From Candidatus Heimdallarchaeum aukensis (GTDB lineage Archaea; Asgardarchaeota; Heimdallarchaeia; Heimdallarchaeales; Heimdallarchaeaceae), in assembly GCA_021513695.1 (NCBI GenBank), contig CP084166.1:1088001-1152000 (forward strand): DNA of 64,000 nt. The letters run 5' to 3'. The stretch's first letter is position 1. Each line of letters begins with the position of its first letter. This document shows positions 8,813 through 59,681 of the stretch, piece after piece. The notes beneath the pieces were generated by a model. The model saw only the letters and a program-made list of their open reading frames with translations. It ran no database searches and was not told the origin of the DNA. Position numbers and translations under genes: made by a program.

Positions 8813-10117
8813 TTAGGTTGCTATACGTAATTTTGTTTTACAAGTTGGGCAAGTTCCTTTTTGAATAATCCATTGATAGAGATGATTTTTGTGGAAAATA
8901 TTATCACAAGAAGGACAACGAATAGAATTCTTAAGATTATTTATGCTTTGGAAGCAAATACTACATTTAGGTTTCATTTGAGACGTACCAACAATTCTAA
9001 AATCTTTTGGAATCGAAGAAAAGTCCACTCTAATAGCGTTCTCAGGTGCGTATTCTGCTTTTTTATATTTTATAGAAGGATAAGACTCAAAACTTTGATA
9101 CTTCTTATTCTTTCTTTTTCTAAGTACAATTGATACAATTATAACAGAAATAACTAGAAATGGTGGTCCAGCATAAAGCACTATTTTCAGAAATATTACT
9201 AAAATACTCAAAAAAGACAAAAATACATCACTTTCATACCATTTTTTAATTTTGAAACTATAATCTTTTCCAAAATCAATAGGTATAGAAAAAATAGAAC
9301 TTTTTACTTTAACAAAGAATAATCTTACAATGTTCAATTCTGTAGCATGATCATAAAAAAGCATTATTGAAGCAAAAGAAGAGGAGTTCGAGTATGTTTC
9401 ATTAAAACTAATAGAAAACCATTCAGCTTTTTGAATACTTTCAGAAAGCTTTAATGAAGCAGAAATCGACGATACTGGTCCTTGATAGGTTTCAGAAAAA
9501 ATTGCATTATTAGATTGATCACACACCATTATATCCAAATTCGAAATATTTTTTCCATAAAAATTAATGTTTACATATAGTTTTTTTAATTCAGTAAAAT
9601 GGTCTGGAATTCTTTCTAAACTAAAGTATAATCGGTTTGTCTGTGCTAAGTCTATAAAAGAGTTATAAGTCCAGATTATAGGTTCAGTGAGATTCAAGTT
9701 CCATGAAAAAACAATTTCCTGAACAAATTTATTAACAAATTGTAGTATATAAATTCCAGGTTTTAATTCTTCTGTAATTAAAAAGTGCTTTTCTTTGTCT
9801 CTAGCTGTTATTAACCAATTATTTAGATTTTGCATATCTTTTTCATGGATTAATAATATACCAAGTCCAGTGTAATCATCATCTAATATAATTTCTCCCC
9901 ATTCACCAACTATAACTGAAATTTCGAGAGTTGCAGGTTCATCTAAATAGACATAATACTCTGTTTCTGAGAATGTATCATCTAGTTTCAAAGAAAAAGA
10001 TGAAGAATTCGATTCTTTTTTAATATAATCTGTAGTTCTTTCTGAAATAGCATAAGTACAAAAAAAGTAAGAAGAAAAAAGAACTAATAGTACTAGCAAA
10101 GTAATTTTCTTTTTCAT
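8813..10117 (-). CDS. type-I membrane protein with cytoplasmic RING/PHD-like cross-brace zinc finger
   Basis: It has a signal peptide (MKKKITLLVLLVLFSSYFFCTYA), a ~270-aa ectodomain, one long TM segment, then a KR-rich stop-transfer and the motif CSIC-x12-CPSC-x4-HKNH-x10-CPTC. That is eight Zn ligands with RING-like spacing. Its start overlaps the stop of the upstream vWA gene by 4 nt. Confidence 0.6.
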   Translation of the reverse strand: MKKKITLLVLLVLFSSYFFCTYAISERTTDYIKKESNSSSFSLKLDDTFSETEYYVYLDEPATLEISVIVGEWGEIILDDDYTGLGILLIHEKDMQNLNNWLITARDKEKHFLITEELKPGIYILQFVNKFVQEIVFSWNLNLTEPIIWTYNSFIDLAQTNRLYFSLERIPDHFTELKKLYVNINFYGKNISNLDIMVCDQSNNAIFSETYQGPVSSISASLKLSESIQKAEWFSISFNETYSNSSSFASIMLFYDHATELNIVRLFFVKVKSSIFSIPIDFGKDYSFKIKKWYESDVFLSFLSILVIFLKIVLYAGPPFLVISVIIVSIVLRKRKNKKYQSFESYPSIKYKKAEYAPENAIRVDFSSIPKDFRIVGTSQMKPKCSICFQSINNLKNSIRCPSCDNIFHKNHLYQWIIQKGTCPTCKTKLRIAT

Positions 10118-12276
10118 TTTTTAGCTCCATTTTGTTTTAATATTAATGCACTTAAACTTATGAAACTTATTAGTATAACAAGAAATTGGAAGTCTGCTGT
10201 TACACCGTAATAATGTTCAAAAGGTTCATTCTTACTATCAAGGTTGAAAGAAACAAATATCTCACCTTCATGATATGAAGGATAGATTAGAACAAAGCAT
10301 TCGTCCTCTGGTAAAAGTACTTCAACAAATCCAGAAGCGATCTCTGTCCAATTCACGTCGTAAATAATAATTTTCATTTCTACATACTCTGAATCGGCTA
10401 ATATAGTTCTCTGCTCGCTGAGATTTAATCTATTATCGATGTACAGAAGAATTGATTGATTATATGTTAAAGTTATGGTCATATTCTGTTCAAATTCCAA
10501 GTTTATCTTTTCTACATTGTAAATATTAACATCGATTGCAATGTTTGTCCAAATTTTTATCTTGTAGAGAGAAAGAGATGAAAGACTCAAGTTGATGAAA
10601 TCTTGGCCTGTTTTTTCATAAACTATTTCTCCTTTCTTAACATCTAAACAAATAATATTTACTGGAGATTCTGCATCAATGAGCCCAATTGTACTATTTT
10701 CTTTAGCTTCTAGATAGAATATGGTACTTTGGTTTTCATAAAGATGGAATGTGAATCGCTCATTTGGTAAAAGATTCAAGTACTCAACATTTTCTCCTAA
10801 AGGAGCTGTATATATGCCTGTTACAATATCATTACCTAGATAATCTTCGGTGTAAATATAATAACTCAGTAGCTCATCTTCATCATCATATTTTAATGAT
10901 AAAATAAAGGTATCACCAGATTGATTGGTAGCTTGAGCAATAACCCAAGTAAGATTGTCATTATAACGGTAAAAAACTTCAACAAAAGGTACTCGGGAAA
11001 CATCTAAAACCTCAACTATGATATTAACATACTTTTGTTCAGTGTTGAAATCTTCAGTGTAAGAAGCCCAAGCTCTTATTTCAGGTGGTAAATCATCAAC
11101 TAAGACTCGAAAAACTTTTTCAATTGTTTGAGTAGATGAAGTATCACTTTCAATTGTTAAATAGGTAACAGTAAGGAATATTTTAAGAGCTTTCTCAACA
11201 GAGTAAGTCTCGATGAAATATTTAATTATTCTTGGTAGATCAGCAGTTGAAGGAAATTCTTCTGTACCAATTCTGACATAGGTTCCATGAGTAATTTCAG
11301 CACCTAAACTTAATCTTTCAATAGTCAATTCATCTGAACCTTTCGCTGCAACAGTACACAAAATAAACTTTTCTTCAGCTAATTGTTCATACAAGTTTTG
11401 TAAATCTCTTGTAGAAACCTTTATTCCATCATCTCCAGCTTCATCAGTAATTAAGACAATAAGATTAGGAACATCCTCTCTCCAATCCATTTGATACATA
11501 GCCACCCATAAAGCATCACCCCAAGGTTCAATAGAGCCAGAAGCTTTCGTTTTTTTCAATTTTTTAACGATTTGTTGAACATCAGAGGTTAAAGGTGTAA
11601 CTAGTTCTTCAAAAAGGTAAGGATTTTCTTTTTCTCCTCCGAAAAGAACTAGACCTATTCGTAAATCATTTATTGTATCTGAAAGTTCATTCACTACTGA
11701 GATTAAGTCAGAAGTTAAAGCTTCAATTTCATCGTCCATCGAACCAGATTGATCTAAAACAATAACTAAATCCAGAGATTCACTTATAGTTTCATTTGTT
11801 GTTACATTTACTTTATATTCTTTTGAAAGGTAGGTTTCATGTCCATTTAAAGTCCCTACAGTTTCAAAGGCACTGTTACTTTCTTCGCCACCATCACTCA
11901 CTAAAACGCCTAAATCATTCAAAGAGAAGTTTAATTTCACATCATAAGCTGCAGTTTCATTAATATTGGTTATATTGAAGTAAAATGAGAACTGATTTTG
12001 AGATTTTATACTTGGCATCTTATCTTCTCTGTGACTTTCTAAATTAGTATTGAAAGATACCTTAAGTTCAGGTTCATCTCTCTCTTGTGTAGTAGTAATT
12101 AAACTTTTGATTTCGTTTTCTGTATCACCAATATTTTCAATATTTCCATCAATCTTTATCCCGCCCAATATAAATCCAGCTATCAAAAGAAGGATTAATA
12201 CTTTTTTTAACTTACCAGTAATCATATATATCAAGATATCGATATACATACAACTATATAAAAGTTTCTCTTTCAC
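10114..12276 (-). CDS. membrane-anchored von Willebrand factor A (vWA) domain protein
   Basis: It has an N-terminal TM helix and a vWA domain with the MIDAS motif VLDQSGSMDD (DxSxS). The downstream T and D residues expected of the fold are present. A long beta-rich C-terminal region follows. Confidence 0.65.
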   Translation of the reverse strand: MKEKLLYSCMYIDILIYMITGKLKKVLILLLIAGFILGGIKIDGNIENIGDTENEIKSLITTTQERDEPELKVSFNTNLESHREDKMPSIKSQNQFSFYFNITNINETAAYDVKLNFSLNDLGVLVSDGGEESNSAFETVGTLNGHETYLSKEYKVNVTTNETISESLDLVIVLDQSGSMDDEIEALTSDLISVVNELSDTINDLRIGLVLFGGEKENPYLFEELVTPLTSDVQQIVKKLKKTKASGSIEPWGDALWVAMYQMDWREDVPNLIVLITDEAGDDGIKVSTRDLQNLYEQLAEEKFILCTVAAKGSDELTIERLSLGAEITHGTYVRIGTEEFPSTADLPRIIKYFIETYSVEKALKIFLTVTYLTIESDTSSTQTIEKVFRVLVDDLPPEIRAWASYTEDFNTEQKYVNIIVEVLDVSRVPFVEVFYRYNDNLTWVIAQATNQSGDTFILSLKYDDEDELLSYYIYTEDYLGNDIVTGIYTAPLGENVEYLNLLPNERFTFHLYENQSTIFYLEAKENSTIGLIDAESPVNIICLDVKKGEIVYEKTGQDFINLSLSSLSLYKIKIWTNIAIDVNIYNVEKINLEFEQNMTITLTYNQSILLYIDNRLNLSEQRTILADSEYVEMKIIIYDVNWTEIASGFVEVLLPEDECFVLIYPSYHEGEIFVSFNLDSKNEPFEHYYGVTADFQFLVILISFISLSALILKQNGAKK

Positions 12277-12305
12277 AGAGTATAAGAGAAATATATCAAA
12301 ATATC

Positions 12306-12320
12306 GAAATATTTATAACA
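12306..12320 (+). promoter_or_regulatory. putative archaeal TATA box/BRE for a leaderless transcript of the wHTH-ParA operon
   Basis: The sequence atatTTATAAca is centred about 26 nt upstream of the ATG at 12341. No SD is present. Confidence 0.3.
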
Positions 12321-12340
12321 TGTATAAATGATTCTTAAAT

Positions 12341-12694
12341 ATGGAAAAACTACTGAACAGAGTAGTTGAGCTTTTAGAAGAGATCAACACAAAATTGAGT
12401 AGAATAGAAAAAAAATTAGAAGGAGAAGGAGAGATTAATATACCTTCTTCAATTGATTTATTAACAAAAATGACTAAAGCGCAAAGATTGACTTATTTTG
12501 CTGTACAAAAAATCGGAGAAGCGACTTGTTCAGAAGTAGCAGAAGAGACAGGAAGAAGTATGAATTTAGAGTCAAGGTATTTAAGGAGATTATATGAAAT
12601 GGGAGTTTTAGGAAGAAAACGTGTTCCTGTTTCAGATAAAGAAGAAGAATGGAAGGGGACAGAAGTGAAGTATTTCATAAAGGAGGAGAAGTAA
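12341..12694 (+). CDS. small coiled-coil + winged-helix DNA-binding protein
   Basis: N-terminal coiled coil (LEEINTKLSRIEKKLEGEGE), then a MarR/TrmB-like wHTH (LTYFAVQKIGEATCSEVAEETGRSMNLESRYLRRLYEMGVL). Confidence 0.5.
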   Translation: MEKLLNRVVELLEEINTKLSRIEKKLEGEGEINIPSSIDLLTKMTKAQRLTYFAVQKIGEATCSEVAEETGRSMNLESRYLRRLYEMGVLGRKRVPVSDKEEEWKGTEVKYFIKEEK

Positions 12695-13462
12695 ATGAAA
12701 ACAATAAGTGTTCATAGTTATAGAGGAGGAACAGGAAAAACAACTTTTTTGTTAAATATTGCAGGAGAGTTAGTAACAAGAGGAAAAAAAGTTTTAGCTA
12801 TAGACTTTGATTTAAGAGCACCAGCATTTCAATCTTATTTTAAAATTGATAAACTGAACTATTTGAGTGACTACCTGTTAAATAAAAAGCATTTAGAAGA
12901 AGTTATTGTTCAAGCAGAAGAAAGAGGAAATGGAAGAATAGATTTGATTTTTTCATCTATGGAATTTTTAAAGCAACATTCAAAACAAAGAGATAAGCTT
13001 GTGAGAGATGATACAGTTTATCTTTCAAAGTTGTATCAATTGCAAAAAGAAGTAGAAGAGAATTATGATTATTTATTAATAGATACAACCCCAGGTTTCT
13101 TTTATAGATCAATTGATGCAATGATGATATCAGATATTCTCTTGATTGTTTCTACACCAACCATTTCTAATGTTCAAGGATTAGAAGAGTTATGGAGAAA
13201 TGTCTATTCTATGCTTAAAGAAGATGTAAATATGTACTTATTAATTAATATGATAGAAAAAGAGGGAGAAAAAGTAGATAAAGAATTAGTAGAAAAAAGT
13301 ATAGAAGAGCTAAAAAAAATGGGGAAGAAATATTTTGCAAATAAGTTGATAGAAATACCAGATTATGGAGCAATGGGAGAAAGAATACATTCGTTTGAAC
13401 AAGAACCAAATAAAGAATTTCTAAATAAGATATCAGAATTAATAGATTTACTAAATGGATAA
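12695..13462 (+). CDS. ParA/MinD/SIMIBI-family P-loop ATPase
   Basis: Deviant Walker A YRGGTGKTT, a LAIDFD block and DTTPG (Walker B-like). Its start codon is adjacent to the stop of the wHTH gene. Confidence 0.65.
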   Translation: MKTISVHSYRGGTGKTTFLLNIAGELVTRGKKVLAIDFDLRAPAFQSYFKIDKLNYLSDYLLNKKHLEEVIVQAEERGNGRIDLIFSSMEFLKQHSKQRDKLVRDDTVYLSKLYQLQKEVEENYDYLLIDTTPGFFYRSIDAMMISDILLIVSTPTISNVQGLEELWRNVYSMLKEDVNMYLLINMIEKEGEKVDKELVEKSIEELKKMGKKYFANKLIEIPDYGAMGERIHSFEQEPNKEFLNKISELIDLLNG

Positions 13463-13475
13463 TAGAGGGAAATAG

Positions 13476-14840
13476 GTGAAAGGTGAGAAGGAAAAAGTAA
13501 AGGATTTAAAAAAGGTCCAAAGTTATTTGAAAGATTCTAAAAAAAATCTTTTACTTTTAAAAAGAGGAAAGAAGCCAAGAAGAAAGCTTAAGTTTCTCAT
13601 TAAAGATCACCTTTTTTTCACAATTTTATTCTTAGTCCTAATAGTAGGAGCAACAACTATTCCCCTCTTAATTAAAGAGAAGACAGATGATAAAATAGAG
13701 CAACCAGAAGAGAAAAAAGTAAAGGAAACGCTTACTCTTCTATCGACAAATTTCACAGATAGTGAAGGTATTCCTATAAACGAGTTAGGTAATTACACTG
13801 AATCATCTAAATTAATTATCCTCTCCACTCTTTCATTTTCAATGCTATATCTGGCAGGCTTTAACATAACAATTGAGCAGTTATCACTTCAGAAAGACAA
13901 TATTCTTTCAATTCTTAATGATGGTTCCTTTGTTCAGTTTAACAACAATAGTCAAAAACTTTCTATTTTCTATCAATTTTTGGGCTTATATGCTCTAATC
14001 CAGCTTCTATATGCAACAAAAAACACTGAGATCGGCTTTAGTATTGATATCTTATTCAACAGTTTGAACAAACAATTGAGGGAATATTACAATAAAGAAA
14101 ATAGGCTATTTATTGATAAAAACGCTACAGAAGCTTTTTTGGTTGACCAATCTTTAGCTTTGTGGGTTATTGCTATCACAATACTCTACTTTAATGTAGA
14201 ATCAATATTTGAATTTTATTTACCTGATATAATTCAAGATGTGTTATACAGTTTAAATCAAGATTATAGAAACGCAACAACTAATAAAATTGTGAGCTCA
14301 ATAAGCAATAAGACAAAAGAGCCAATACAATTAGAAGTGACTTCCTTTGATTTATTAATCTTAGTAGCAGCATTATCCAGAGTAAACTTGCTATATGATT
14401 ACTTCTTTGATAATGATTTAAGTAGTATAAATTTGTTTGAAAATATTATTAACCAGTATACAGATGAGAAACTGATAGTTTACGAAAAAAGATTTCTTAA
14501 TGGACATCTACTAATAAGAAATCAGTGTTTTTTTACTCTAACATCATACCTTTTACACTTAACAGTTACAGGAAATCAAAGTTTGAATGTTGTAACAACA
14601 AACTATTGGAAAGATAATAAGGGTTTCATTGAGGAAATTAATGCAAATAAGTTTTCAGCAGAAGCAAACTACTATGGATTGATAACTTTAGCTAGCCCAG
14701 AATGGAGTAAAGGAGAATATTTCTATATTCAAGACAATTATAAGGGAAATGCCGTAACCTCTAGAGCAGATGTGTTAACGATATTCGTATCATTAGTGAT
14801 AGTATTCATCATAAATAAGAGAAGAAAAAGAATAAAATAA
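13476..14840 (+). CDS. membrane protein (N-terminal TM, large extracytoplasmic domain, C-terminal TM + KRRKRIK tail)
   Basis: Hydropathy pattern only. It lies 13 nt downstream of the ParA-like gene. Confidence 0.45.
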   Translation: MKGEKEKVKDLKKVQSYLKDSKKNLLLLKRGKKPRRKLKFLIKDHLFFTILFLVLIVGATTIPLLIKEKTDDKIEQPEEKKVKETLTLLSTNFTDSEGIPINELGNYTESSKLIILSTLSFSMLYLAGFNITIEQLSLQKDNILSILNDGSFVQFNNNSQKLSIFYQFLGLYALIQLLYATKNTEIGFSIDILFNSLNKQLREYYNKENRLFIDKNATEAFLVDQSLALWVIAITILYFNVESIFEFYLPDIIQDVLYSLNQDYRNATTNKIVSSISNKTKEPIQLEVTSFDLLILVAALSRVNLLYDYFFDNDLSSINLFENIINQYTDEKLIVYEKRFLNGHLLIRNQCFFTLTSYLLHLTVTGNQSLNVVTTNYWKDNKGFIEEINANKFSAEANYYGLITLASPEWSKGEYFYIQDNYKGNAVTSRADVLTIFVSLVIVFIINKRRKRIK

Positions 14841-14844
14841 CAAT

Positions 14845-15495
14845 TTAATTACCAATTAGCCCTTGAGTAATAGAAAAACTAGTTTCATCTTTAATTTGAT
14901 TGTAAAATTGTTTTAGTATTTTTAATCGTCGTCTCGCAAGCCTTTTGGTGAAACAGAAATGCATTCTTGAAGGAAGAAGAAAAAGTTTATCATCAAAATG
15001 AAGTAACATCTCATCTATATCTCTATTGTGCTCTAAACTGAAAGAAATTACACGAAAAAGGCCGATAGAACCTAAAGCATCCAACATATCTGCATCTTGT
15101 AAGATTTTGCCTTCAATACTCGTAGGCTCTCTACTTTTACTGAAACGGTGTTCAAGAATATTAACACGAACTTCCTCTGCTAAATCAGGAAAACCTCGCT
15201 CAGAAAGAAAGTCAAAAGCTATTTTTGAACCCATTTCAGCATGACACTCTCCTGTTTTAGACTCTTCTGGGCGAGCAACATCATGAAAAAGGGCACTTAA
15301 TAAACAAACATCAAGAAAAACATGGAGCTTGACTCCAATAGAATAACACAAGTCAATAACACGAATAGTATGCTCTAAAGAGTGAGTAGAAGAATCATTG
15401 TCTAATTTAGAAGAAACAAAAGAATATCCTTCTTTAAAGATTTTAAGAAATAAAGAATAGTCTTTAATATACTTGGCTTTGTAATGAGAAATCAT
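14845..15495 (-). CDS. HD-domain metal-dependent phosphohydrolase
   Basis: H...HD motif (HSLEHTIRV ... ALFHDVARPE) with downstream H and D residues. It lies 33 nt downstream of the 545-aa unknown gene on the same strand. Confidence 0.65.
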   Translation of the reverse strand: MISHYKAKYIKDYSLFLKIFKEGYSFVSSKLDNDSSTHSLEHTIRVIDLCYSIGVKLHVFLDVCLLSALFHDVARPEESKTGECHAEMGSKIAFDFLSERGFPDLAEEVRVNILEHRFSKSREPTSIEGKILQDADMLDALGSIGLFRVISFSLEHNRDIDEMLLHFDDKLFLLPSRMHFCFTKRLARRRLKILKQFYNQIKDETSFSITQGLIGN

Positions 15496-15527
15496 TAAAC
15501 AATTAAAAAACCTCAGCTATTAATAAT

Positions 15528-17165
15528 TTATGAATAGGCATTTTCATATTCTTCATTATTTGCAGTTAAGCATGAAATTCGGCTATAAATTTCTTCAAAA
15601 TATGATCGTGAATAAATAGTTTCAGAAATGTTATAGTGGTCTTGAATCACACTTAAAGCTTTGTAATAAATTTCCTGAATCAGAAAAAATATATTAACAT
15701 CAAACATGTTTTTTCCAAATGATTTTGGAATCTTATGTAAACCATGAAGTGGATTAATGCAAAACTCTGTATTGAGCTCTGTTAATCCAGACCAATCACT
15801 GTGACTAATACCAGCTGTTGGACCGTAAAACAAATCATAGTATTTTTTGTCTCCAATGTCTTCAGCCATTTTTCTAATACTAGTTTTATCAGCCCAACTA
15901 CCTGTGAGCTTTATTTTTATTAGATCTGATAAACCTTTTTCTGTTAAAATTCTATCAATTTGCTTAATTTTTTTTTCATATCCTTTTGGTTTATATTCCT
16001 CTAATTTCATTTTTTCATTCTTTTTTTCACCATAACCATATTCTTTAAACTTTGCATATAATTCTTCATCATCTTTTAGTAATAACCACTTTAAAACAAA
16101 ATATGTTTCTAAATGGTTTCTTAGTAGAATATAGCCAATAGATGGTTCTTGGAAAACTAAATAATTGGAAAAAAATTGAAAATTTGACGCTAGTCTAGAA
16201 ATAAGTCCAGCAACGATATCCTCTTTGGATGGATTATATATGTTAATTTTGATTTTTTTCCACATTTGATTGATTTCAAGATCAATACTATCAATCAAAT
16301 AAAGTCGCATTTCGGTAAGTTCATACCAAACTTGATTATATTCTTGAATATTTATCTTTCTCATGGAAGGAATACAAGGAGATAATAGTCCATTTTTCAT
16401 CCAGAATTTTTTTGACCAATTTTGATCAATAAAATTATCTAAAAATATAGCTGATATGCTTCGCGCCGATGATTCAACCAATTTTTTGTCTCCCTGCGGA
16501 TATACCGATAGTGCTTTAATAATCCTCGAACAAGTTTCTTGTTCTAACCCGATTATTTTTCTCTCTTCCATCATTCTCATTAGAACAAGTACTCGCATTA
16601 ATGATGCAAGATCACCATGACTCTCATATAACTCGATAATAAGATTAGAAATAACATCTAAAATCTCATCTTTTTGACTCTCGGAAAATGGTTTTACGTT
16701 AAATAAATAATTAAGAGAATCTTCTTGATAAATATTCATTATATCCTCAAAACGCGTTCTAATAAAAATAGACGCAAAAATGTGTTGAATTTCATTTAAG
16801 AAATCTTTTTGATGCTCTAAAGGAATATTAGAAAATTCGCTTACCAAGCCAAATGAGACAGCATCAGATTGAAGATATTTTTGAATTAATTGAGTAGTCT
16901 TTCTGTAAAGATAAAGAGCTTTATGATGATCATAAGTAGTGAATAAACTAGCTACCCAAAGAAACTCAGGAAGTTGTTTTTTTGACCAATCAACTTCTAT
17001 TATCTTATCCTCTCCTAACAGATATAAGAGGGGGGAAATCAAATGTTTCTTATATCGTTTGTGTTTTAAATACTTATCTTTTTTGTGTTTCATAAAAGAT
17101 ATTATTGAAAAATATAATATAAAATATTCGAAATTTAATTTTTTAATATTAATAAAATAAAGCAT
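15528..17165 (-). CDS. uncharacterised 545-aa protein (no recognisable motif)
   Basis: The ORF is long, with complex composition and no low-complexity bias. The true start may be the internal Met (MKHKKDKY) roughly 25 codons in. Confidence 0.5.
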   Translation of the reverse strand: MLYFINIKKLNFEYFILYFSIISFMKHKKDKYLKHKRYKKHLISPLLYLLGEDKIIEVDWSKKQLPEFLWVASLFTTYDHHKALYLYRKTTQLIQKYLQSDAVSFGLVSEFSNIPLEHQKDFLNEIQHIFASIFIRTRFEDIMNIYQEDSLNYLFNVKPFSESQKDEILDVISNLIIELYESHGDLASLMRVLVLMRMMEERKIIGLEQETCSRIIKALSVYPQGDKKLVESSARSISAIFLDNFIDQNWSKKFWMKNGLLSPCIPSMRKINIQEYNQVWYELTEMRLYLIDSIDLEINQMWKKIKINIYNPSKEDIVAGLISRLASNFQFFSNYLVFQEPSIGYILLRNHLETYFVLKWLLLKDDEELYAKFKEYGYGEKKNEKMKLEEYKPKGYEKKIKQIDRILTEKGLSDLIKIKLTGSWADKTSIRKMAEDIGDKKYYDLFYGPTAGISHSDWSGLTELNTEFCINPLHGLHKIPKSFGKNMFDVNIFFLIQEIYYKALSVIQDHYNISETIYSRSYFEEIYSRISCLTANNEEYENAYS

Positions 17166-17183
17166 AATTTTTATAATAGTTAA

Positions 17184-17576
17184 GTGAATAGTTTAGTTAT
17201 GAACAATAAAAAAATAAACAAGAATCAAGGAGAAAAACAAGAGTCTCAAGCTTTTACCATGTCAATTTTTTCTAGACGCTGGGGACATGAAGATAACTAT
17301 ATTGTATTTATGTGGGAAGAAGGTTGGAAAATATCATCACATAGTGGTATTGTTGAATGTAATAAAAGATTTGAACCAGGATTATATGACATACTTAAAC
17401 ATGACTCGATTAATTACCCTAAAAATCTTCCTCTATATTTCGAATGGTTTTGGGAAGAAGCTCAAGAACAAGGATTAAACCATGAAGAAATTCAAGAAGG
17501 ATTGACAGAACTTACTAACTGGATAAACAGATGTGAAATTTCAACTCCTTCAAAAGGAATATTTGAAAGATTTTAA
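17184..17576 (+). CDS. hypothetical 130-aa protein
   Basis: ORF only (W-rich, acidic). It is divergent from the 545-aa gene. Confidence 0.35.
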   Translation: MNSLVMNNKKINKNQGEKQESQAFTMSIFSRRWGHEDNYIVFMWEEGWKISSHSGIVECNKRFEPGLYDILKHDSINYPKNLPLYFEWFWEEAQEQGLNHEEIQEGLTELTNWINRCEISTPSKGIFERF

Positions 17577-17670
17577 AATTTGCATGTAAAATCAAAGGCT
17601 ATATTAGACAACATAAAATGATGTCTCCATATGATTGCTAAGATTGACACAATATATAAAAAGAATTTTT

Positions 17671-19815
17671 CTAATTTAAATTACCTAAGAATTCTAAAAA
17701 AGCTAAAAATTCAGTATTTTTATTTTTAATTAATTTTATAACTAAATTGAAACATTCTTCAAATGTCATATCTTTCCAGTCGTCTTTTTTGAATTTTGTT
17801 ACTGTCTTTTTAATCATACCTTCTAAATCATTCTCCCAAGAGAAAATATTGTAATTCTTTGCAAAACTAATAATCTCCTTTTTCCTTTCTTGTATATTAG
17901 TTGTTTTTGAAGAAAAAATTTCATCTAAATTTATATTACACCGTTGTTTCAAAATTTTACTAATATAACTATTAGTCAAAGAATTTTTAGGTTTAAGAAA
18001 TGCATCAAAATCACATATTAAAACATACTTAATATCAAAGAAATCTGCTATCGATAAAGCCTTGGAAATATCACCGGTACCATCAATTGAAATAACATCC
18101 CAATTTAAGAAATTCGTGCTTGAAAGATTAAGTTCTTTTTGAATATGATGATTCTCCAGAACAGAGAATAAAGTTGTAACAATTTTATTGTCATATGTTC
18201 CTTCAACAAAAATAACATTGGAAGCAAAAAATATGCTTTTTATGTTAGGATCCAAGAGAAAACGATTATAACGCTCTTCATCTTTAAGTCCTTCAAGAAA
18301 AGATCTTAAATATTTAATCTGACTTCCAGTTTTTGTTTTTAAACATCGAAGAATTGAATATAGAAGTTCATTAGATATCAAATCAGGACTATGAGTGACA
18401 ACTAAATAAGAATGCTCATTATCTTGTTTAATATAATTACCAAGTTTCTTTCTAAAAGAAGGATGAAGAGTTTTACCAGGTTCATCTAATATTATAGTAT
18501 CAGCTTCAAATCCATAAATGGAACATAAAACCATTAAAATCTCATAAGCTCCTCCAGGCGAGCAATTTAATCTAAAAGCTTTATTATTTTGCAAGTCGTG
18601 AAATTGAATATCAGGACGTTTACCTGTTAATACTGCACCTTCATCTAATTTAATAGAATAGGAGTTTTGTTGAGAATAAGAAGAATCAGGTTCAATTAAG
18701 AGAACAGGAGCTTTTTTTTCATGAACCTTTTCGTCAACAAGGACAATGTTAAAATTATATTTTTCTTCAGTCATAGTTTTGAAATGTTCTCTGATACGTT
18801 CAAAAATTTCTTGCTCTTTGGGATTTGAACTCATTTTCTTTTGAAATAGTGCATATTTGATTCTTTCAAGAGTTAGTACATTTGTAATGTTTTCTCTCCA
18901 AGGATAACTAAAACCATTTTCTAATAATCCTCTATCTTCTCTTAAAATAACAACTTTTTGTCTAATGATTTTTGAAATAAAATTGCCAAAATATTTGTAG
19001 TAATTATAAATTTCAATTTTATAACCCATTTTTCGAAGCAAAATTCTAAAATCTGCAGATAAATTATGAAGTTCAGGTAAAAAATCAATATTACTGAAAT
19101 CTAATTCAGATAAATATAAAATTAAGGCTTTTTCAAATATATATTGAAAAAAAATATTTTTTAGAAAATCTTCATTATTTTTAACAAGTTCTTTAATATC
19201 TTCTCCAGGATATAAATCATTAAAGGATTTGACGAAAGAAGTAATATTTCGAAAATCTAGATATTGATTTTTACTTAATGTTAAAATTTCATCTAATTTT
19301 TTCTCTTTGTCAACTAAAATAATTATATTTGTTGAAGGATTACTTAAGTAAATGTTTAAAGATTCATTAAATGAAAGTATTAAAAAATATTTTAATCTCT
19401 CAGGATTGTTGCTTTCAGAACAAAAGCCTATTGTTAAATCAGAAAAAGAATCCTTGAGAAAATTCTCCCAATTGTTAAAGAAAGAATAGATTAATGCTCT
19501 ACCGAATTCTTGATCTGAACTTAAATGCATTGAACAAAAAGATAAGACAAGAAATTTACGTAAAAAAATACGTTCATCTTCACTTAGTTCAAAGGTTAAA
19601 TAAATTTTAGATTGAGTTTTGGTGTCCCAAAAAGGAAAATAAGACCAATCTAAGTTAGAGGTTGCAGAGTTGGATAATATAAAATCAATTATTCTAACAA
19701 GATTAGATTTTCCAGAACCATTCTCGCCAACAATAATAGACTTTTGATTAAGATTTATTTCTTGTTCTTCAGAATAAGAAAGAAAGTTCTTGATATAAAT
19801 CTTCTTAAGAATCAT
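17671..19815 (-). CDS. OLD-family / PARIS-like nuclease: N-terminal ABC-type (AAA_15/21) ATPase fused to C-terminal Toprim domain
   Basis: Walker A IVGENGSGKSNL near the N terminus, Walker B IILDEPG, an H-loop VVTHSPDLI, then a Toprim region with VFVEGTYD (Glu) and LICDFDA (DxD). Length is 714 aa. Confidence 0.7.
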   Translation of the reverse strand: MILKKIYIKNFLSYSEEQEINLNQKSIIVGENGSGKSNLVRIIDFILSNSATSNLDWSYFPFWDTKTQSKIYLTFELSEDERIFLRKFLVLSFCSMHLSSDQEFGRALIYSFFNNWENFLKDSFSDLTIGFCSESNNPERLKYFLILSFNESLNIYLSNPSTNIIILVDKEKKLDEILTLSKNQYLDFRNITSFVKSFNDLYPGEDIKELVKNNEDFLKNIFFQYIFEKALILYLSELDFSNIDFLPELHNLSADFRILLRKMGYKIEIYNYYKYFGNFISKIIRQKVVILREDRGLLENGFSYPWRENITNVLTLERIKYALFQKKMSSNPKEQEIFERIREHFKTMTEEKYNFNIVLVDEKVHEKKAPVLLIEPDSSYSQQNSYSIKLDEGAVLTGKRPDIQFHDLQNNKAFRLNCSPGGAYEILMVLCSIYGFEADTIILDEPGKTLHPSFRKKLGNYIKQDNEHSYLVVTHSPDLISNELLYSILRCLKTKTGSQIKYLRSFLEGLKDEERYNRFLLDPNIKSIFFASNVIFVEGTYDNKIVTTLFSVLENHHIQKELNLSSTNFLNWDVISIDGTGDISKALSIADFFDIKYVLICDFDAFLKPKNSLTNSYISKILKQRCNINLDEIFSSKTTNIQERKKEIISFAKNYNIFSWENDLEGMIKKTVTKFKKDDWKDMTFEECFNLVIKLIKNKNTEFLAFLEFLGNLN

Positions 19816-19961
19816 TGATTAAAAATGAATTTTAACTATAAGTATTTTTCTTTTATAATTAAAGAAAATAGTAAGAAGAAAAAGATTAAACAAAATTTAG
19901 AATAGATAGAAAATTTTAAATGAGAAAATAAAAAGAGAACTGTAGATAGAAACAGCAAATT

Positions 19962-20038
19962 GACCGGGTAGTCTAGCTTGGTACGATACATGCTTGGGGT
20001 GCATGTGATCCTGGGTTCGAATCCCAGCTCGGTCACCA
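19962..20038 (+). tRNA. tRNA-Pro (anticodon GGG), CCA encoded
   Basis: Cloverleaf: acceptor GACCGGG/CTCGGTC, anticodon stem CATGC/GCATG with loop TTGGGGT, T arm CTGGG-TTCGAAT-CCCAG, discriminator A, then CCA. Confidence 0.8.
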
Positions 20039-20385
20039 TGTATTATTCTCCAATTACAGCAAACATAGATGAAATATGCGAAATTTCTTTTTTTCATTGA
20101 ATTATTTGTACTATTTTTTTTACTATAAGATAAATTTACATGTAATTACTTATCTATATTAATGTAGTAAATATTGTTTGTTTAAAATCACATTATTTTA
20201 AGAACTATTATAAAAAATGTTGTAAATGATAATTTATTTTCTTGTTATTGAAAAATAGGAACAAATAAGGATTTCTTCATTAAGTACAAAGTCTTAAATA
20301 TTGAGCAAAATAAACACAAATAATTACACATAGAAAAAACTAAACAATAATGTCAAATTAAGCGTTGATACTCTATAATATGTAA

Positions 20386-20785
20386 TTGTCCCCAAATTTC
20401 CTTGCTTTGTTTGGCATTTGTGTTGGAATGAGTAGTATGAAACTTATCAAGGTATCAATTCTGACCACTTTATTTTCTCTATATCTATTTTTTTCAAGTT
20501 CACAACATTTAGTTTTTGCAGCTAATCTGGAACTTAATTCACAATTGCCGTTATTATGGACTTTTACAACTGACAGTCAATTCTATTCAAGCCCTGCTAT
20601 TGGAGATTTGGATGGAGATAACATATATACGTAAAACAAATCCTTGGAAATGGGATACAGATTGGGATACATTACCAGATGGATATGATATATTTCCCCT
20701 ATTTCCAGATGGATGGATCTATTATGGGATACTTGGTTCAGTTATTGTATTAGTTGTGGTAAAATTATACAAAAAGAAAAGATAA
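20386..20785 (+). pseudogene. possible frameshifted remnant of a surface protein (signal peptide ... FG-GAP-like SSPAIGDLDGDN ... C-terminal TM + KKKR)
   Basis: Two overlapping ORFs in different frames (82 aa and 89 aa). Together they resemble the N and C termini of a much larger anchored protein. The location is right beside a tRNA. Confidence 0.25.
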
Positions 20786-20901
20786 ACTAATAAAACAGAA
20801 TATTGGTCTATATCCTTGTTTGAAATACTAATCTGTTATCTATCATTTTTTTATGCTTGATAAAAAAGTGAATAGAATATCTGAATTCTTTTTTCTTTTT
20901 T

Positions 20902-21444
20902 TTACATTTTTCTTATTATTTCTATTGCTTCTTCTACTTCTTTTACTTTTATTATTTTTTCTCTTTCTTTTTCATCTATTTTTTCTTCTTTTGCTATTTT
21001 TTCGCTCCACCCACCTGATTTTTCTATTAATATTATTTTTTTACCATATTGCCACGCCATTGCTATTTCTGATAATGTCCCTGCTCCTCCTCCTATCCCT
21101 ACCACCACATCTGCGGACAGTACTATTATTTGATTTCTCGCGTAACTCATTCCTGTTGGTATTATGATATCCACGTATTCATTTGCTTGTTCTTTTTTTG
21201 TTGTCGGCAATATTCCTATAGTCATTCCTTCTCTGTATTTTTTTGCCTTTTTTGCTCCTTTACACACTTCTTTCATTATTCCGTCTTTTCCTCCACATAT
21301 TATTCTGCAATTATTTTCTACTAGTTTTTCTCCTAGTTCCTCTGCTATTTTTTTCAGTTCTTCTTTTATTTCTCCCCCTTTGCCTATTACTGCTACTTGC
21401 TTTATTTTATTCACCTTCGTCCCTCCAAATGTTATTATTTTCAA
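20902..21444 (-). CDS. LOG/TIGR00725-family Rossmann-fold protein (SLOG superfamily)
   Basis: IGGGAGTLSEI (PGGxGTxxE-like) motif and an upstream GGKDGIM block. Length is 180 aa. Confidence 0.6.
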   Translation of the reverse strand: MKIITFGGTKVNKIKQVAVIGKGGEIKEELKKIAEELGEKLVENNCRIICGGKDGIMKEVCKGAKKAKKYREGMTIGILPTTKKEQANEYVDIIIPTGMSYARNQIIVLSADVVVGIGGGAGTLSEIAMAWQYGKKIILIEKSGGWSEKIAKEEKIDEKEREKIIKVKEVEEAIEIIRKM

Positions 21445-59496: not shown

Positions 59497-59571
59497 TGGT
59501 AGTCCCCAGGAGATTTGAACTCCTGCCCCCGGATCCAGAGTCCGGGATCCTTGCCACTAGACTAGGGGACT
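59497..59571 (-). tRNA. tRNA-Gln (anticodon CUG)
   Basis: The reverse complement folds as AGTCCCC/GGGGACT acceptor, CCGGA-CTCTGGA-TCCGG anticodon arm and AGGAG-TTCAAAT-CTCCT T arm, followed by ACCA. Confidence 0.8.
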
Positions 59572-59606
59572 CTAAATTACAAGCGGTAACAAAGGATTGG
59601 AAAAGA

Positions 59607-59681
59607 TGGTAGTCCCCAGGAGATTCGAACTCCTGCCACCGGATTCAAAGTCCGGAATCCTTGCCGCTAGACTAGGGGACT
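59607..59681 (-). tRNA. tRNA-Gln (anticodon UUG)
   Basis: Same scaffold as the neighbouring tRNA, with anticodon loop CTTTGAA and T loop TTCGAAT. It lies 35 nt from the first tRNA-Gln. Confidence 0.8.

What the first reader, a model, noticed from the sequence alone, without database searches (positions are those of the whole stretch)
17671..19815. tRNA-adjacent OLD-family / fused-PARIS-like ABC-ATPase-Toprim gene: probable stand-alone anti-phage nuclease
The 714-aa protein has the full motif set of an AAA_15/AAA_21 ABC-type ATPase (IVGENGSGKSNL, ILDEPG, VVTHSPDLI), and then a Toprim fold (VEG...CDFDA). This is the architecture of P2 Old (class 1 OLD), Gabija GajA and single-polypeptide AriA-AriB (PARIS) fusions. 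The gene sits 146 bp from tRNA-Pro, a classic integration and defence hot-spot, inside an otherwise housekeeping region. No UvrD-like GajB partner is present, so a class-1 OLD or fused PARIS is the better fit. Such systems are barely described in archaea.
Basis: partly seen in the sequence, partly recalled or inferred. Interest (0 to 1): 0.7.

Follow-up and report, generated by a model that had tools for sequence, protein, structure and literature searches.

The report
Stand-alone OLD nuclease in Heimdallarchaeum
This is an intact single-gene OLD-family ATPase-nuclease, probably antiviral, carried in a small three-gene block that a sister Asgard archaeon lacks; it is a divergent member of a known defence family, not a new kind of system.

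Summary

It is an OLD-family protein, an ABC ATPase fused to a Toprim nuclease, and all catalytic residues are conserved. Its nearest references are the PADLOC "Old" model and the Class 1 Thermus scotoductus OLD structure. There is no AriB-type Toprim, so it is not a fused PARIS. There is no UvrD-like or reverse-transcriptase neighbour, so it is not Gabija or a retron effector.

It belongs to a long-ATPase subfamily: Walker A to Walker B is 408 aa, against 242-262 in characterised Class 1 proteins. Members occur in Heimdallarchaeota, Thermoplasmata and a few eukaryotes. An August 2026 preprint already reports an Asgard-eukaryote link for OLD-like proteins.

The window matches Candidatus Heimdallarchaeum, probably Ca. 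H. aukensis. In the sister species Ca. H. endolithica PR6, tRNA-Pro directly abuts the HD gene. The 4.36-kb block 15525-19887 (DUF5677/DitA-like gene, 130-aa gene, OLD) is absent there and has unusually low GC. So the gene is accessory, not a core Cran1-like gene.

The block lies on the tRNA's 5' side and has no integrase or att repeat. A defence role is inferred, not shown.

The parts
17671..19815 (-). OLD-family gene, 714 aa: N-terminal ABC ATPase (about residues 1-500, with a long insertion) and C-terminal Toprim nuclease (about residues 525-714).
19705..19728 (-). Walker A / P-loop G30-ENGSGK36-S37.
   Evidence: G30, G35 and K36 are invariant in the 15-sequence alignment that includes eukaryotic members. 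Coordinates verified.
18928..18939 (-). E293-D-R295-G296. R295 is the likely Q-loop equivalent; many Class 1 OLDs have Arg at this position according to PMC7049728.
   Evidence: R295 is invariant in alignment A4. Literature. The assignment to the Q-loop is an inference.
18541..18555 (-). G421-GAYE425, a signature-like motif about 20 residues upstream of Walker B.
   Evidence: Invariant in the core clade. Its position relative to Walker B is read directly from the sequence.
18463..18489 (-). Walker B L443-D444-E445-P-G, followed by D-loop His451.
   Evidence: E445 is invariant; D444 and H451 are at least 90% conserved. This stretch aligns with the TsOLD Walker B and D-loop region.
18391..18393 (-). 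H-loop His475, within VVTHSPDLI.
   Evidence: At least 90% conserved. Aligns with TsOLD 'STHSP'.
18190..18204 (-). Toprim E538-G-T-Y-D542. E538 is a metal A ligand and D542 a metal B ligand, with the same ExxxD spacing as TsOLD E377/D381.
   Evidence: E538 and G539 are invariant. HMM alignment to 6p74; residue roles from PMC7049728.
18004..18012 (-). Toprim DxD motif D602-F-D604, the remaining metal A ligands. Corresponds to TsOLD D431/D433.
   Evidence: D602 is invariant and D604 at least 90% conserved. Alignment.
17821..17841 (-). S659-W-E661-N-D663-L-E665, holding the second half of the metal B site. It corresponds to S478-x-E480 in TsOLD and D541-x-E543 in P2 Old. E665 is the invariant residue.
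   Evidence: The region is covered by the PADLOC Old model match. Which of the two x-E pairs binds the metal was not resolved.
19962..20038 (+). tRNA-Pro(GGG). Its 5' end faces the OLD gene.
15525..19887 (.). 4.36-kb accessory block of three genes, absent from Ca. H. endolithica PR6, with GC 0.267.
   Evidence: blastn against L010; junction alignments; GC in the lowest 1.3% of equal-sized windows.
15528..17165 (-). 545-aa DUF5677 protein that matches the PADLOC DitA model over its full length. It is an orphan: no DitB was found. It is a second candidate defence gene in the block.
   Evidence: Pfam 6.5e-16; PADLOC DitA 2.3e-31.
17184..17576 (+). 130-aa protein of Pfam PF21648 ('integron cassette protein', M1E1E6-like). 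It is convergent with the OLD gene.
   Evidence: Pfam 1.8e-11.
14845..15495 (-). HD-domain gene, the conserved flank. In PR6 it sits about 120 bp from tRNA-Pro.

Best explanation
The gene encodes a stand-alone OLD-family enzyme: an SMC/Rad50-like ABC ATPase head fused to a two-metal Toprim nuclease. It is one of three cargo genes in a 4.36-kb accessory block beside tRNA-Pro in a Heimdallarchaeum genome.

The most likely function is single-gene antiviral or anti-mobile-element defence of the Class 1 OLD type. By analogy with TsOLD, the protein would dimerise through the insertion in its ATPase. By analogy with P2 Old and Vc OLD, ATP binding and hydrolysis (K36, R295, D444/E445, H451, H475) would license the Toprim site. 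That site comprises metal A ligands E538/D602/D604 and metal B ligands D542 plus the SWENDLE acidic residues. It would cut nucleic acid: either DNA, by nicking or 5'-3' degradation as in TsOLD and Vc OLD, or tRNA anticodon stems as in P2 Old. The result would be blocked viral replication or an aborted infection.

Shown here: domain make-up, fold, conservation of every catalytic residue, absence of any partner gene, and accessory status relative to a sister species. Inferred: enzymatic activity, oligomeric state, the trigger, the substrate and the defence role itself.
For: Family: Pfam AAA_15 at 4e-13, SMC_N, AAA_21, and OLD-like_TOPRIM at 1.9e-9, all above cut-off. PADLOC Old at 2.6e-28 is the best model. 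The nuclease half alone hits Old at 1.7e-13, ahead of GajA at 1.2e-6.

Catalytic residues are invariant across 15 sequences, including eukaryotic members.

Stand-alone status: upstream is the tRNA and downstream is a convergent gene. The contexts of eight relatives show no recurring partner.

Accessory status: the block is absent from PR6 while its flanks are about 85% identical. The OLD gene's GC of 0.257 is well below the mean of the window's 43 large ORFs (z = -2.4), and the block's GC is in the lowest 1.3% of equal-sized windows. The closest homolog in 5.8 billion proteins is only 47% identical.

Defence-like company: the block also carries a DitA-like DUF5677 gene. The Heimdallarchaeota LC_2 relative sits between a TIR-domain gene and a transposase. 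Wu et al. 2022 describe defence systems acting as mobile cargo at tRNA genes in these two genomes.

Class 1 OLDs with demonstrated defence activity: P2 Old (PMC12445682) and Vc OLD (PMC12392090).
Against: No experiment shows a defence role for any archaeal OLD. The one archaeal OLD studied, Cran1, acts in the cell cycle and not in defence.

At 714 aa, with about 150 extra residues in the ATPase, the protein is well outside the size of characterised Class 1 enzymes, so their mechanism may not transfer.

No close homolog was found on viral contigs. There is no integrase, att repeat or target-site duplication that would explain how the block moved. With only two complete genomes, a deletion in PR6 cannot be told apart from an insertion here.

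The region around residues 180-310 and 366-390 of the model has low confidence.
Confidence: 0.6

Rival explanations
1. Cellular, non-defence role like Cran1 (Class 5 OLD): a chromatin- or replication-associated ATPase-nickase acting in cell-cycle progression or DNA repair.
Against: The gene is absent from the sister species PR6 at an otherwise syntenic locus. No ortholog closer than 47% identity exists in the protein collection. Its GC is atypical. Its distribution is patchy, across Heimdallarchaeota, Thermoplasmata and scattered eukaryotes, with a different context in each case. This is the opposite of the vertical inheritance that defines Cran1's clade. No motif match was found in the Cran1 dataset.
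Confidence: 0.12
2. The three co-inserted genes (OLD, the 130-aa PF21648 protein and the DUF5677/DitA-like protein) form one multi-gene defence system and are not independent cargo.
For: All three are present in the window and absent together from PR6, as one 4.36-kb block. DitA normally works with a partner gene in the two-gene Aditi system (from my own knowledge of Millman et al. 2022, not verified in the library), and no DitB is detectable here.
Against: The genes are not co-oriented: OLD and the 130-aa gene converge, and the 130-aa gene and DUF5677 diverge. None of the eight homolog contexts contains a DUF5677 or PF21648 gene.
Confidence: 0.1
3. An orphan Gabija GajA (Class 2 OLD) that has lost GajB or works with a distant GajB.
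For: GajA structures are the top Foldseek hits at 1.5e-13. Many PADLOC GajA models hit, down to 1.2e-24.
Against: Neither the window nor any of the relatives' contexts has a UvrD/PcrA/Rep-like gene next to the OLD gene. The Old model outscores GajA, clearly so on the nuclease half (48 against 25 bits). In the PDB profile search, TsOLD is best and GajA is absent from the 60 rows shown.
Confidence: 0.04
4. A single-polypeptide PARIS (AriA-AriB fusion) that senses viral anti-restriction proteins and cleaves tRNA.
For: AriA models give weak hits of about 1e-10 on the ATPase half. The fused AriAB model matches residues 1-86. The AriA structure gives 3.7e-9 in the profile search.
Against: The nuclease half gives no AriB hit in PADLOC, and Pfam reports no DUF4435. 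It matches OLD-like_TOPRIM and the Old model instead. The AriA-level similarity is no better than that to many generic ABC ATPases such as mad3, HEC-01A and PtuA.
Confidence: 0.02

Closest known systems
Class 1 OLD nucleases (P2 Old, Thermus scotoductus OLD 6P74, Vibrio cholerae Vc OLD)
   Same: A single polypeptide of ABC ATPase plus Toprim. A single isolated gene without a helicase or reverse-transcriptase partner. Best PADLOC model (Old) and best PDB sequence match (TsOLD). The same ExxxD...DxD...(S/D)xE metal-ligand layout, and a short C-terminal tail of about 50 aa after the last acidic motif.
   Different: It is 714 aa, against about 525-590 aa. Walker A to Walker B is 408 aa, against 242 (TsOLD) and 262 (P2). 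A conserved GGAYE signature-like motif is present, where Class 1 signatures are described as degenerate. The host is an Asgard archaeon. No activity data exist.
Gabija GajA (Class 2 OLD)
   Same: Same fold (top Foldseek hits) and similar overall length range.
   Different: No GajB/UvrD-like neighbour in the window or in any relative examined. Weaker sequence match than to Old and TsOLD.
Cran1 / Class 5 OLD of Sulfolobales
   Same: An archaeal OLD-family ATPase-nickase with the same domain order.
   Different: Cran1 is vertically inherited, conserved across its order and essential. This gene is absent from the sister species, patchily distributed and compositionally atypical.
Eukaryotic OLD-like proteins, 'Cluster 1' of Promethearchaeota plus Metazoa (bioRxiv 10.64898/2026.08.18.745644)
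   Same: The profile of this clade retrieves proteins from a nemertean, a jakobid and an amoebozoan. The nemertean protein shares the C-terminal WxxDLE...W...FL module. The preprint's alignment includes a Ca. H. aukensis OLD.
   Different: I could not verify that the preprint's sequence is this gene. My NJ tree gives no support for the deep nodes. The eukaryotic proteins carry further large insertions.
PARIS AriA/AriB (Class 4 OLD)
   Same: An ABC ATPase plus Toprim logic, with possible tRNA targeting.
   Different: PARIS is split into two genes and uses a DUF4435-type Toprim. Neither feature is found here.

Membership tests
OLD family (ABC ATPase + Toprim nucleases) | N-terminal ABC-type ATPase with Walker A, Walker B and H-loop | tested here: met
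   Pfam AAA_15, SMC_N and AAA_21 above cut-off. K36, D444/E445, H451 and H475 are conserved.
OLD family (ABC ATPase + Toprim nucleases) | C-terminal Toprim domain with a conserved Glu and a DxD motif, plus metal B acidic residues | tested here: met
   PF20469 at 1.9e-9. E538/D542, D602/D604 and E665 are conserved and align to the TsOLD ligands.
OLD family (ABC ATPase + Toprim nucleases) | Fold similarity to solved OLD structures over both domains | tested here: met
OLD family (ABC ATPase + Toprim nucleases) | ATP hydrolysis and metal-dependent nuclease activity | not testable with these tools
   Requires purified protein.
Class 1 OLD | Isolated single gene, with no UvrD/PcrA/Rep-like helicase immediately downstream | tested here: met
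   Downstream is a convergent 130-aa PF21648 gene and upstream is tRNA-Pro. The same holds for eight relatives.
Class 1 OLD | Closest in sequence to Class 1 reference proteins | tested here: met
   PADLOC Old is best for the full length and for the nuclease half. TsOLD is the best PDB match by profile at 4.2e-23. No maximum-likelihood tree with reference classes was made.
Class 1 OLD | Size: on average about 50 aa shorter than Class 2 (TsOLD 525 aa), with a compact ATPase | tested here: not met
   714 aa. Walker A to Walker B is 408 aa, against 242 (TsOLD) and 262 (P2).
Class 1 OLD | Lacks the Toprim Insert 3 helix and the C-terminal helical domain of Class 2 | tested here: inconclusive
   Only 49 residues follow E665, too few for a Class 2-type helical domain. 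The 55 residues between DxD and SWE contain predicted helices of modest confidence.
Class 1 OLD | Protects against viruses as a single gene | not testable with these tools
   Needs infection assays.
Class 2 OLD / Gabija | GajB (UvrD-like helicase) gene adjacent to the OLD gene | tested here: not met
   None of the neighbours scanned with Pfam between 12.7 and 22.4 kb has a helicase domain, and none appears in the relatives' contexts.
Class 3 OLD / retron I-B | Adjacent reverse transcriptase and msr/msd ncRNA | tested here: not met
   No reverse-transcriptase domain in the neighbours. Rfam finds only tRNAs in the window.
Class 4 OLD / PARIS | AriB-type (DUF4435) Toprim, normally encoded by a separate gene | tested here: not met
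   No AriB or DUF4435 hit on the nuclease half.
Class 5 OLD / Cran1 | Vertically inherited and conserved across the host lineage (a core gene) | tested here: not met
   Absent from the syntenic locus of the sister species PR6. The nearest homolog is 47% identical and sits in an unrelated context.
tRNA-integrated genomic island | Integrase gene, direct repeat of the tRNA 3' end, and location at the tRNA 3' side | tested here: not met
   The block is on the 5' side of tRNA-Pro. No tRNA-derived repeat, target-site duplication or integrase was found.
tRNA-integrated genomic island | Presence/absence polymorphism between close relatives | tested here: met
   Window 15525-19887 is absent in PR6. Two further differences flank the tRNA. 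A third arrangement appears in L045.
Aditi system (for the neighbouring gene 15528-17165) | DitA together with DitB | tested here: not met
   The DitA model hits at 2.3e-31 over its full length. No DitB hit was found in the 130-aa or HD proteins. That DitA belongs to Aditi is from my own knowledge.

The most novel reading that the evidence does not exclude
The window protein belongs to an uncharacterised 'long-ATPase' OLD subfamily. Members are about 730 aa, carry about 150 extra residues between Walker A and the Q-loop, and have an SMC-like head. This subfamily would be the archaeal source of the OLD-like immune genes scattered through eukaryotes (jakobid, amoebozoan, nemertean and the metazoan 'Cluster 1'). 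On this reading, a Heimdallarchaeal defence nuclease family was passed to early eukaryotes, and the extra insertion gives it a sensing or oligomerisation mode different from Class 1-4 OLDs.
Probability: 0.15. Interest if true: 0.7.

Novelty: new member of a known kind. Interest (0 to 1): 0.38.

Why it matters
No archaeal OLD nuclease has been shown to act in defence, and the only one studied, Cran1, does something else. This gene is a clean test case. It is intact, it is a single gene, and it is demonstrably accessory between two closed Heimdallarchaeum genomes. It also belongs to a subfamily with Asgard and eukaryotic members. Testing it would show whether stand-alone OLD defence operates in the archaeal lineage closest to eukaryotes, and what the enlarged ATPase insertion does. 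The family assignment itself is ordinary, and the Asgard-eukaryote connection has already been proposed in a preprint.

Tried and rejected
1. Fused PARIS. Rejected: no AriB or DUF4435 signal.

2. Gabija. Rejected: no GajB in the window or in any relative's context examined.

3. Retron effector. Rejected: no reverse transcriptase or ncRNA.

4. Classical tRNA-integrated island. No att repeat, integrase or target-site duplication, and the block is on the wrong side of the tRNA.

5. Viral carriage. The IMG/VR scan returned only generic P-loop matches.

6. Placement among the Cran1 paper's clades U1-U11. The dataset sequences are cut at 400 aa. Neither this clade's motifs nor the named relatives occur there, so no clade label could be assigned.

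7. My own NJ tree of 145 sequences. Deep nodes have bootstrap support below 20%, so they are not usable for class placement.

8. The third homolog search, with a broader profile. It retrieved no additional subfamily members because candidate selection was swamped by generic ABC ATPases.

9. The metagenome scan with the tRNA-Pro pattern. It gave a single 1.1-kb contig with an inverted tRNA segment. It is informative about plasticity at the site, but it is possibly chimeric and not a clean empty site.

10. The literature on DitA and Aditi was not in the library. DUF5677 is enriched near defence-associated recombinases, but the ORF tested was not protective.

11. A first regex for motif spacing was faulty and was redone.
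Full report
**Observation**

The ORF 17671-19815 (minus strand, 714 aa) is real, and its ATG start agrees with homologs from residue 1. tRNA-Pro(GGG) lies at 19962-20038 on the plus strand, so the gap is exactly 146 bp. The quoted motifs are all present and were mapped to coordinates. An open frame of this length has a chance probability of about 4e-23 in this AT-rich sequence.

**What the protein is**

- Pfam gives AAA_15, SMC_N, AAA_21 and OLD-like_TOPRIM, all above their curated cut-offs.
- In PADLOC the best model is Old (2.6e-28), followed by many GajA models, the retron I-B ATPase-Toprim model and weak AriA hits.
- When the two halves are scanned separately, the nuclease half (residues 501-714) hits only Old (1.7e-13) and weaker GajA models, with no AriB. 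The ATPase half hits a long list of generic ABC-type defence ATPases at similar levels.
- A 15-sequence profile searched against PDB sequences gives the Class 1 Thermus scotoductus OLD (6P74) as the clear best hit at 4.2e-23. Retron-Eco8 OLD follows at 1.6e-12 and AriA at 3.7e-9.
- An AlphaFold2 model (pLDDT 71, pTM 0.73) finds GajA, TsOLD and Eco8 OLD first in Foldseek.

**Catalytic residues**

I used the residues defined experimentally for TsOLD and P2 Old in PMC7049728. The HMM alignment places E538/D542 on TsOLD E377/D381, with the same ExxxD spacing, and D602/D604 on D431/D433. The motif S659-W-E661-N-D663-L-E665 corresponds to the (S/D)-x-E metal B motif. I could not decide which of its two x-E pairs binds the metal.

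Across 15 sequences that include eukaryotic members, the invariant columns are essentially the catalytic ones: G30, G35, K36, R295, E445, E538, G539, D602 and E665. D444, H451, H475 and D604 are at least 90% conserved. The protein therefore looks enzymatically competent in both domains.

**How it differs from characterised OLDs**

The distance from the Walker A lysine to the Walker B aspartate is 408 aa. It is 242 in TsOLD and 262 in P2 Old, and 226-321 in the ordinary OLDs of my set.

This long ATPase is shared by the relatives found in the exhaustive HMMER scan. In 78 parsed sequences the median spacing is 407 aa, and 97% are at least 350 aa. That scan found 105 cluster representatives at E <= 1e-30.

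The word-indexed search had suggested near-isolation, with only four homologs at 47-28% identity. The exhaustive search corrected that impression. None of the named relatives, and none of this clade's motifs, occurs in the dataset behind the Cran1 paper's Classes 1-5 and clades U1-U11. Those sequences are cut at 400 aa, however.

**Organism and locus**

A neighbouring SLOG protein is 95% identical to one in the complete genome of Candidatus Heimdallarchaeum endolithica PR6. About 10.6 kb to the right of the tRNA aligns with PR6 at 85% nucleotide identity. Wu et al. 2022 report 88% ANI and 90% AAI between PR6 and Ca. H. aukensis PM71. The window is therefore most likely Ca. H. aukensis, although I could not verify this directly. 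The same contig occurs in three metagenome samples.

In PR6, tRNA-Pro is followed after about 120 bp by the HD-domain gene that corresponds to window 14845-15495. The window segment 15525-19887 is missing there as a block. That segment holds the DUF5677/DitA-like gene, a 130-aa PF21648 'integron cassette' protein and the OLD gene.

The OLD gene's GC of 0.257 is well below the mean of the window's 43 large ORFs (z = -2.4), and the block's GC of 0.267 falls in the lowest 1.3% of equal-sized windows.

The junctions show no target-site duplication, terminal repeat, tRNA-derived repeat or integrase. The surroundings are also plastic:

- Window 10005-14623 is absent from PR6.
- The sequence immediately 3' of the tRNA differs: about 0.6 kb of gene remnants in the window, against 2 kb with two ORFs in PR6.
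- A short metagenome contig (L045) has the tRNA inverted so that its 3' end abuts an HD gene 96% identical to the window's. This contig may be chimeric.

**Partners and context of relatives**

None of the eight relatives whose contigs I could read has a UvrD-like, reverse-transcriptase, DUF5677 or PF21648 neighbour, and none sits next to a tRNA. The contexts are unrelated to one another. One Heimdallarchaeota relative lies between a TIR-domain gene and a DDE transposase. No close homolog lies on IMG/VR viral contigs.

**Interpretation**

The gene is a stand-alone OLD-family ATPase-nuclease, Class 1-like both by the operational definition (a single gene) and by its nearest references. It belongs to a distinct long-ATPase subfamily, so I do not file it as a typical Class 1 member, because the size criterion is not met.

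Its accessory status, odd composition, patchy distribution and defence-like company make antiviral or anti-mobile-element defence the most likely role (confidence about 0.6). It would act by ATP-licensed two-metal cleavage of DNA, as in TsOLD and Vc OLD, or of tRNA, as in P2 Old.

The main rival is a Cran1-like cellular role. It is disfavoured because the defining feature of that class, vertical conservation, is contradicted by the comparison with PR6. The fused-PARIS, Gabija and retron readings each fail a defining feature.

**Novelty**

The family is well known. Archaeal, including Asgard, OLDs have been catalogued. An August 2026 preprint reports eukaryotic OLD-like proteins whose 'Cluster 1' joins Promethearchaeota with metazoans, including ribbon worms, and uses a Ca. 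H. aukensis OLD in its alignment.

My searches independently recovered relatives from a nemertean, a jakobid, an amoebozoan and a further EukProt transcriptome. My tree, however, gives no support for the deep branching.

The new elements here are modest. One is the base-resolution demonstration that the gene is accessory cargo between two closed Heimdallarchaeum genomes. The other is the recognition that a long ATPase insertion defines a sizeable uncharacterised subfamily.

Noticed in passing
window 10005-14623: A second block is absent from PR6. It holds a 720-aa VWA protein, a 117-aa ORF, a ParA/MinD-like ATPase (12695-13462) and a 454-aa membrane protein. In PR6 the HD gene directly abuts the RING-finger gene. 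Wu et al. 2022 note that Heimdallarchaeum 'aloposons' carry a four-gene module that includes a MinD/ParA-like ATPase and integrate at tRNAs, so this may be a remnant of such an element.
   Followed up: partly
window 20039-20900: About 860 bp immediately 3' of tRNA-Pro is AT-rich and mostly non-coding. Two overlapping short ORFs (20386-20634 and 20516-20785) look like a frameshifted remnant: a signal peptide, an FG-GAP-like 'SSPAIGDLDGDN' stretch, then a C-terminal membrane anchor. At this position PR6 instead has 2 kb with 314-aa and 118-aa ORFs that have no PADLOC hit (a Pfam scan of them failed on a coordinate error and was not redone).
   Followed up: partly
L045 (Ga0190359_1092867) 1-1100: A third arrangement of the locus. 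tRNA-Pro plus its 5' flank is 100% identical to PR6, and that identity stops exactly at the CCA end. After 78 bp comes an HD gene 96% identical to the window's, in the same direction, so the tRNA segment is inverted relative to both genomes. This is either real recombination at the tRNA 3' end or a chimeric contig.
   Followed up: partly
proteins P0038, P0083, P0152, P0007 (relatives of window 17671-19815): The profile of this clade retrieves eukaryotic proteins: Andalucia godoyi ANDGO_04949, Echinamoeba exundans transcripts, a further EukProt transcript, and Tubulanus polymorphus LOC141902825 on a 27.8-Mb scaffold. The nemertean protein shares the C-terminal 'W..DLE...W...FL' module and has a roughly 370-aa insertion in its Toprim domain.
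   Followed up: partly
L039 8001-10208 (Heimdallarchaeota LC_2, OLS26852.1): This OLD-subfamily member is annotated in GenBank as 'Chromosome partition protein Smc', which is very probably a mis-annotation. It sits between a TIR-domain/pentapeptide protein and a DDE transposase.
   Followed up: no
window 15528-17165: A 545-aa DUF5677 protein matches the PADLOC DitA (Aditi) model over its full length at 2.3e-31, but no DitB-like partner is detectable. An orphan DitA homolog in an Asgard archaeon may be a defence gene in its own right.
   Followed up: partly
window 20902-21444: A SLOG cluster-4 (LDcluster4) protein gives weak hits to the SLOG parts of ThsA, ShosA and PsyrA defence models. It is 95% conserved in PR6 and so is probably a core gene.
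   Followed up: partly
window 59497-59681: Two tandem tRNA-Gln genes (CTG and TTG anticodons) lie 36 bp apart on the minus strand.
   Followed up: no
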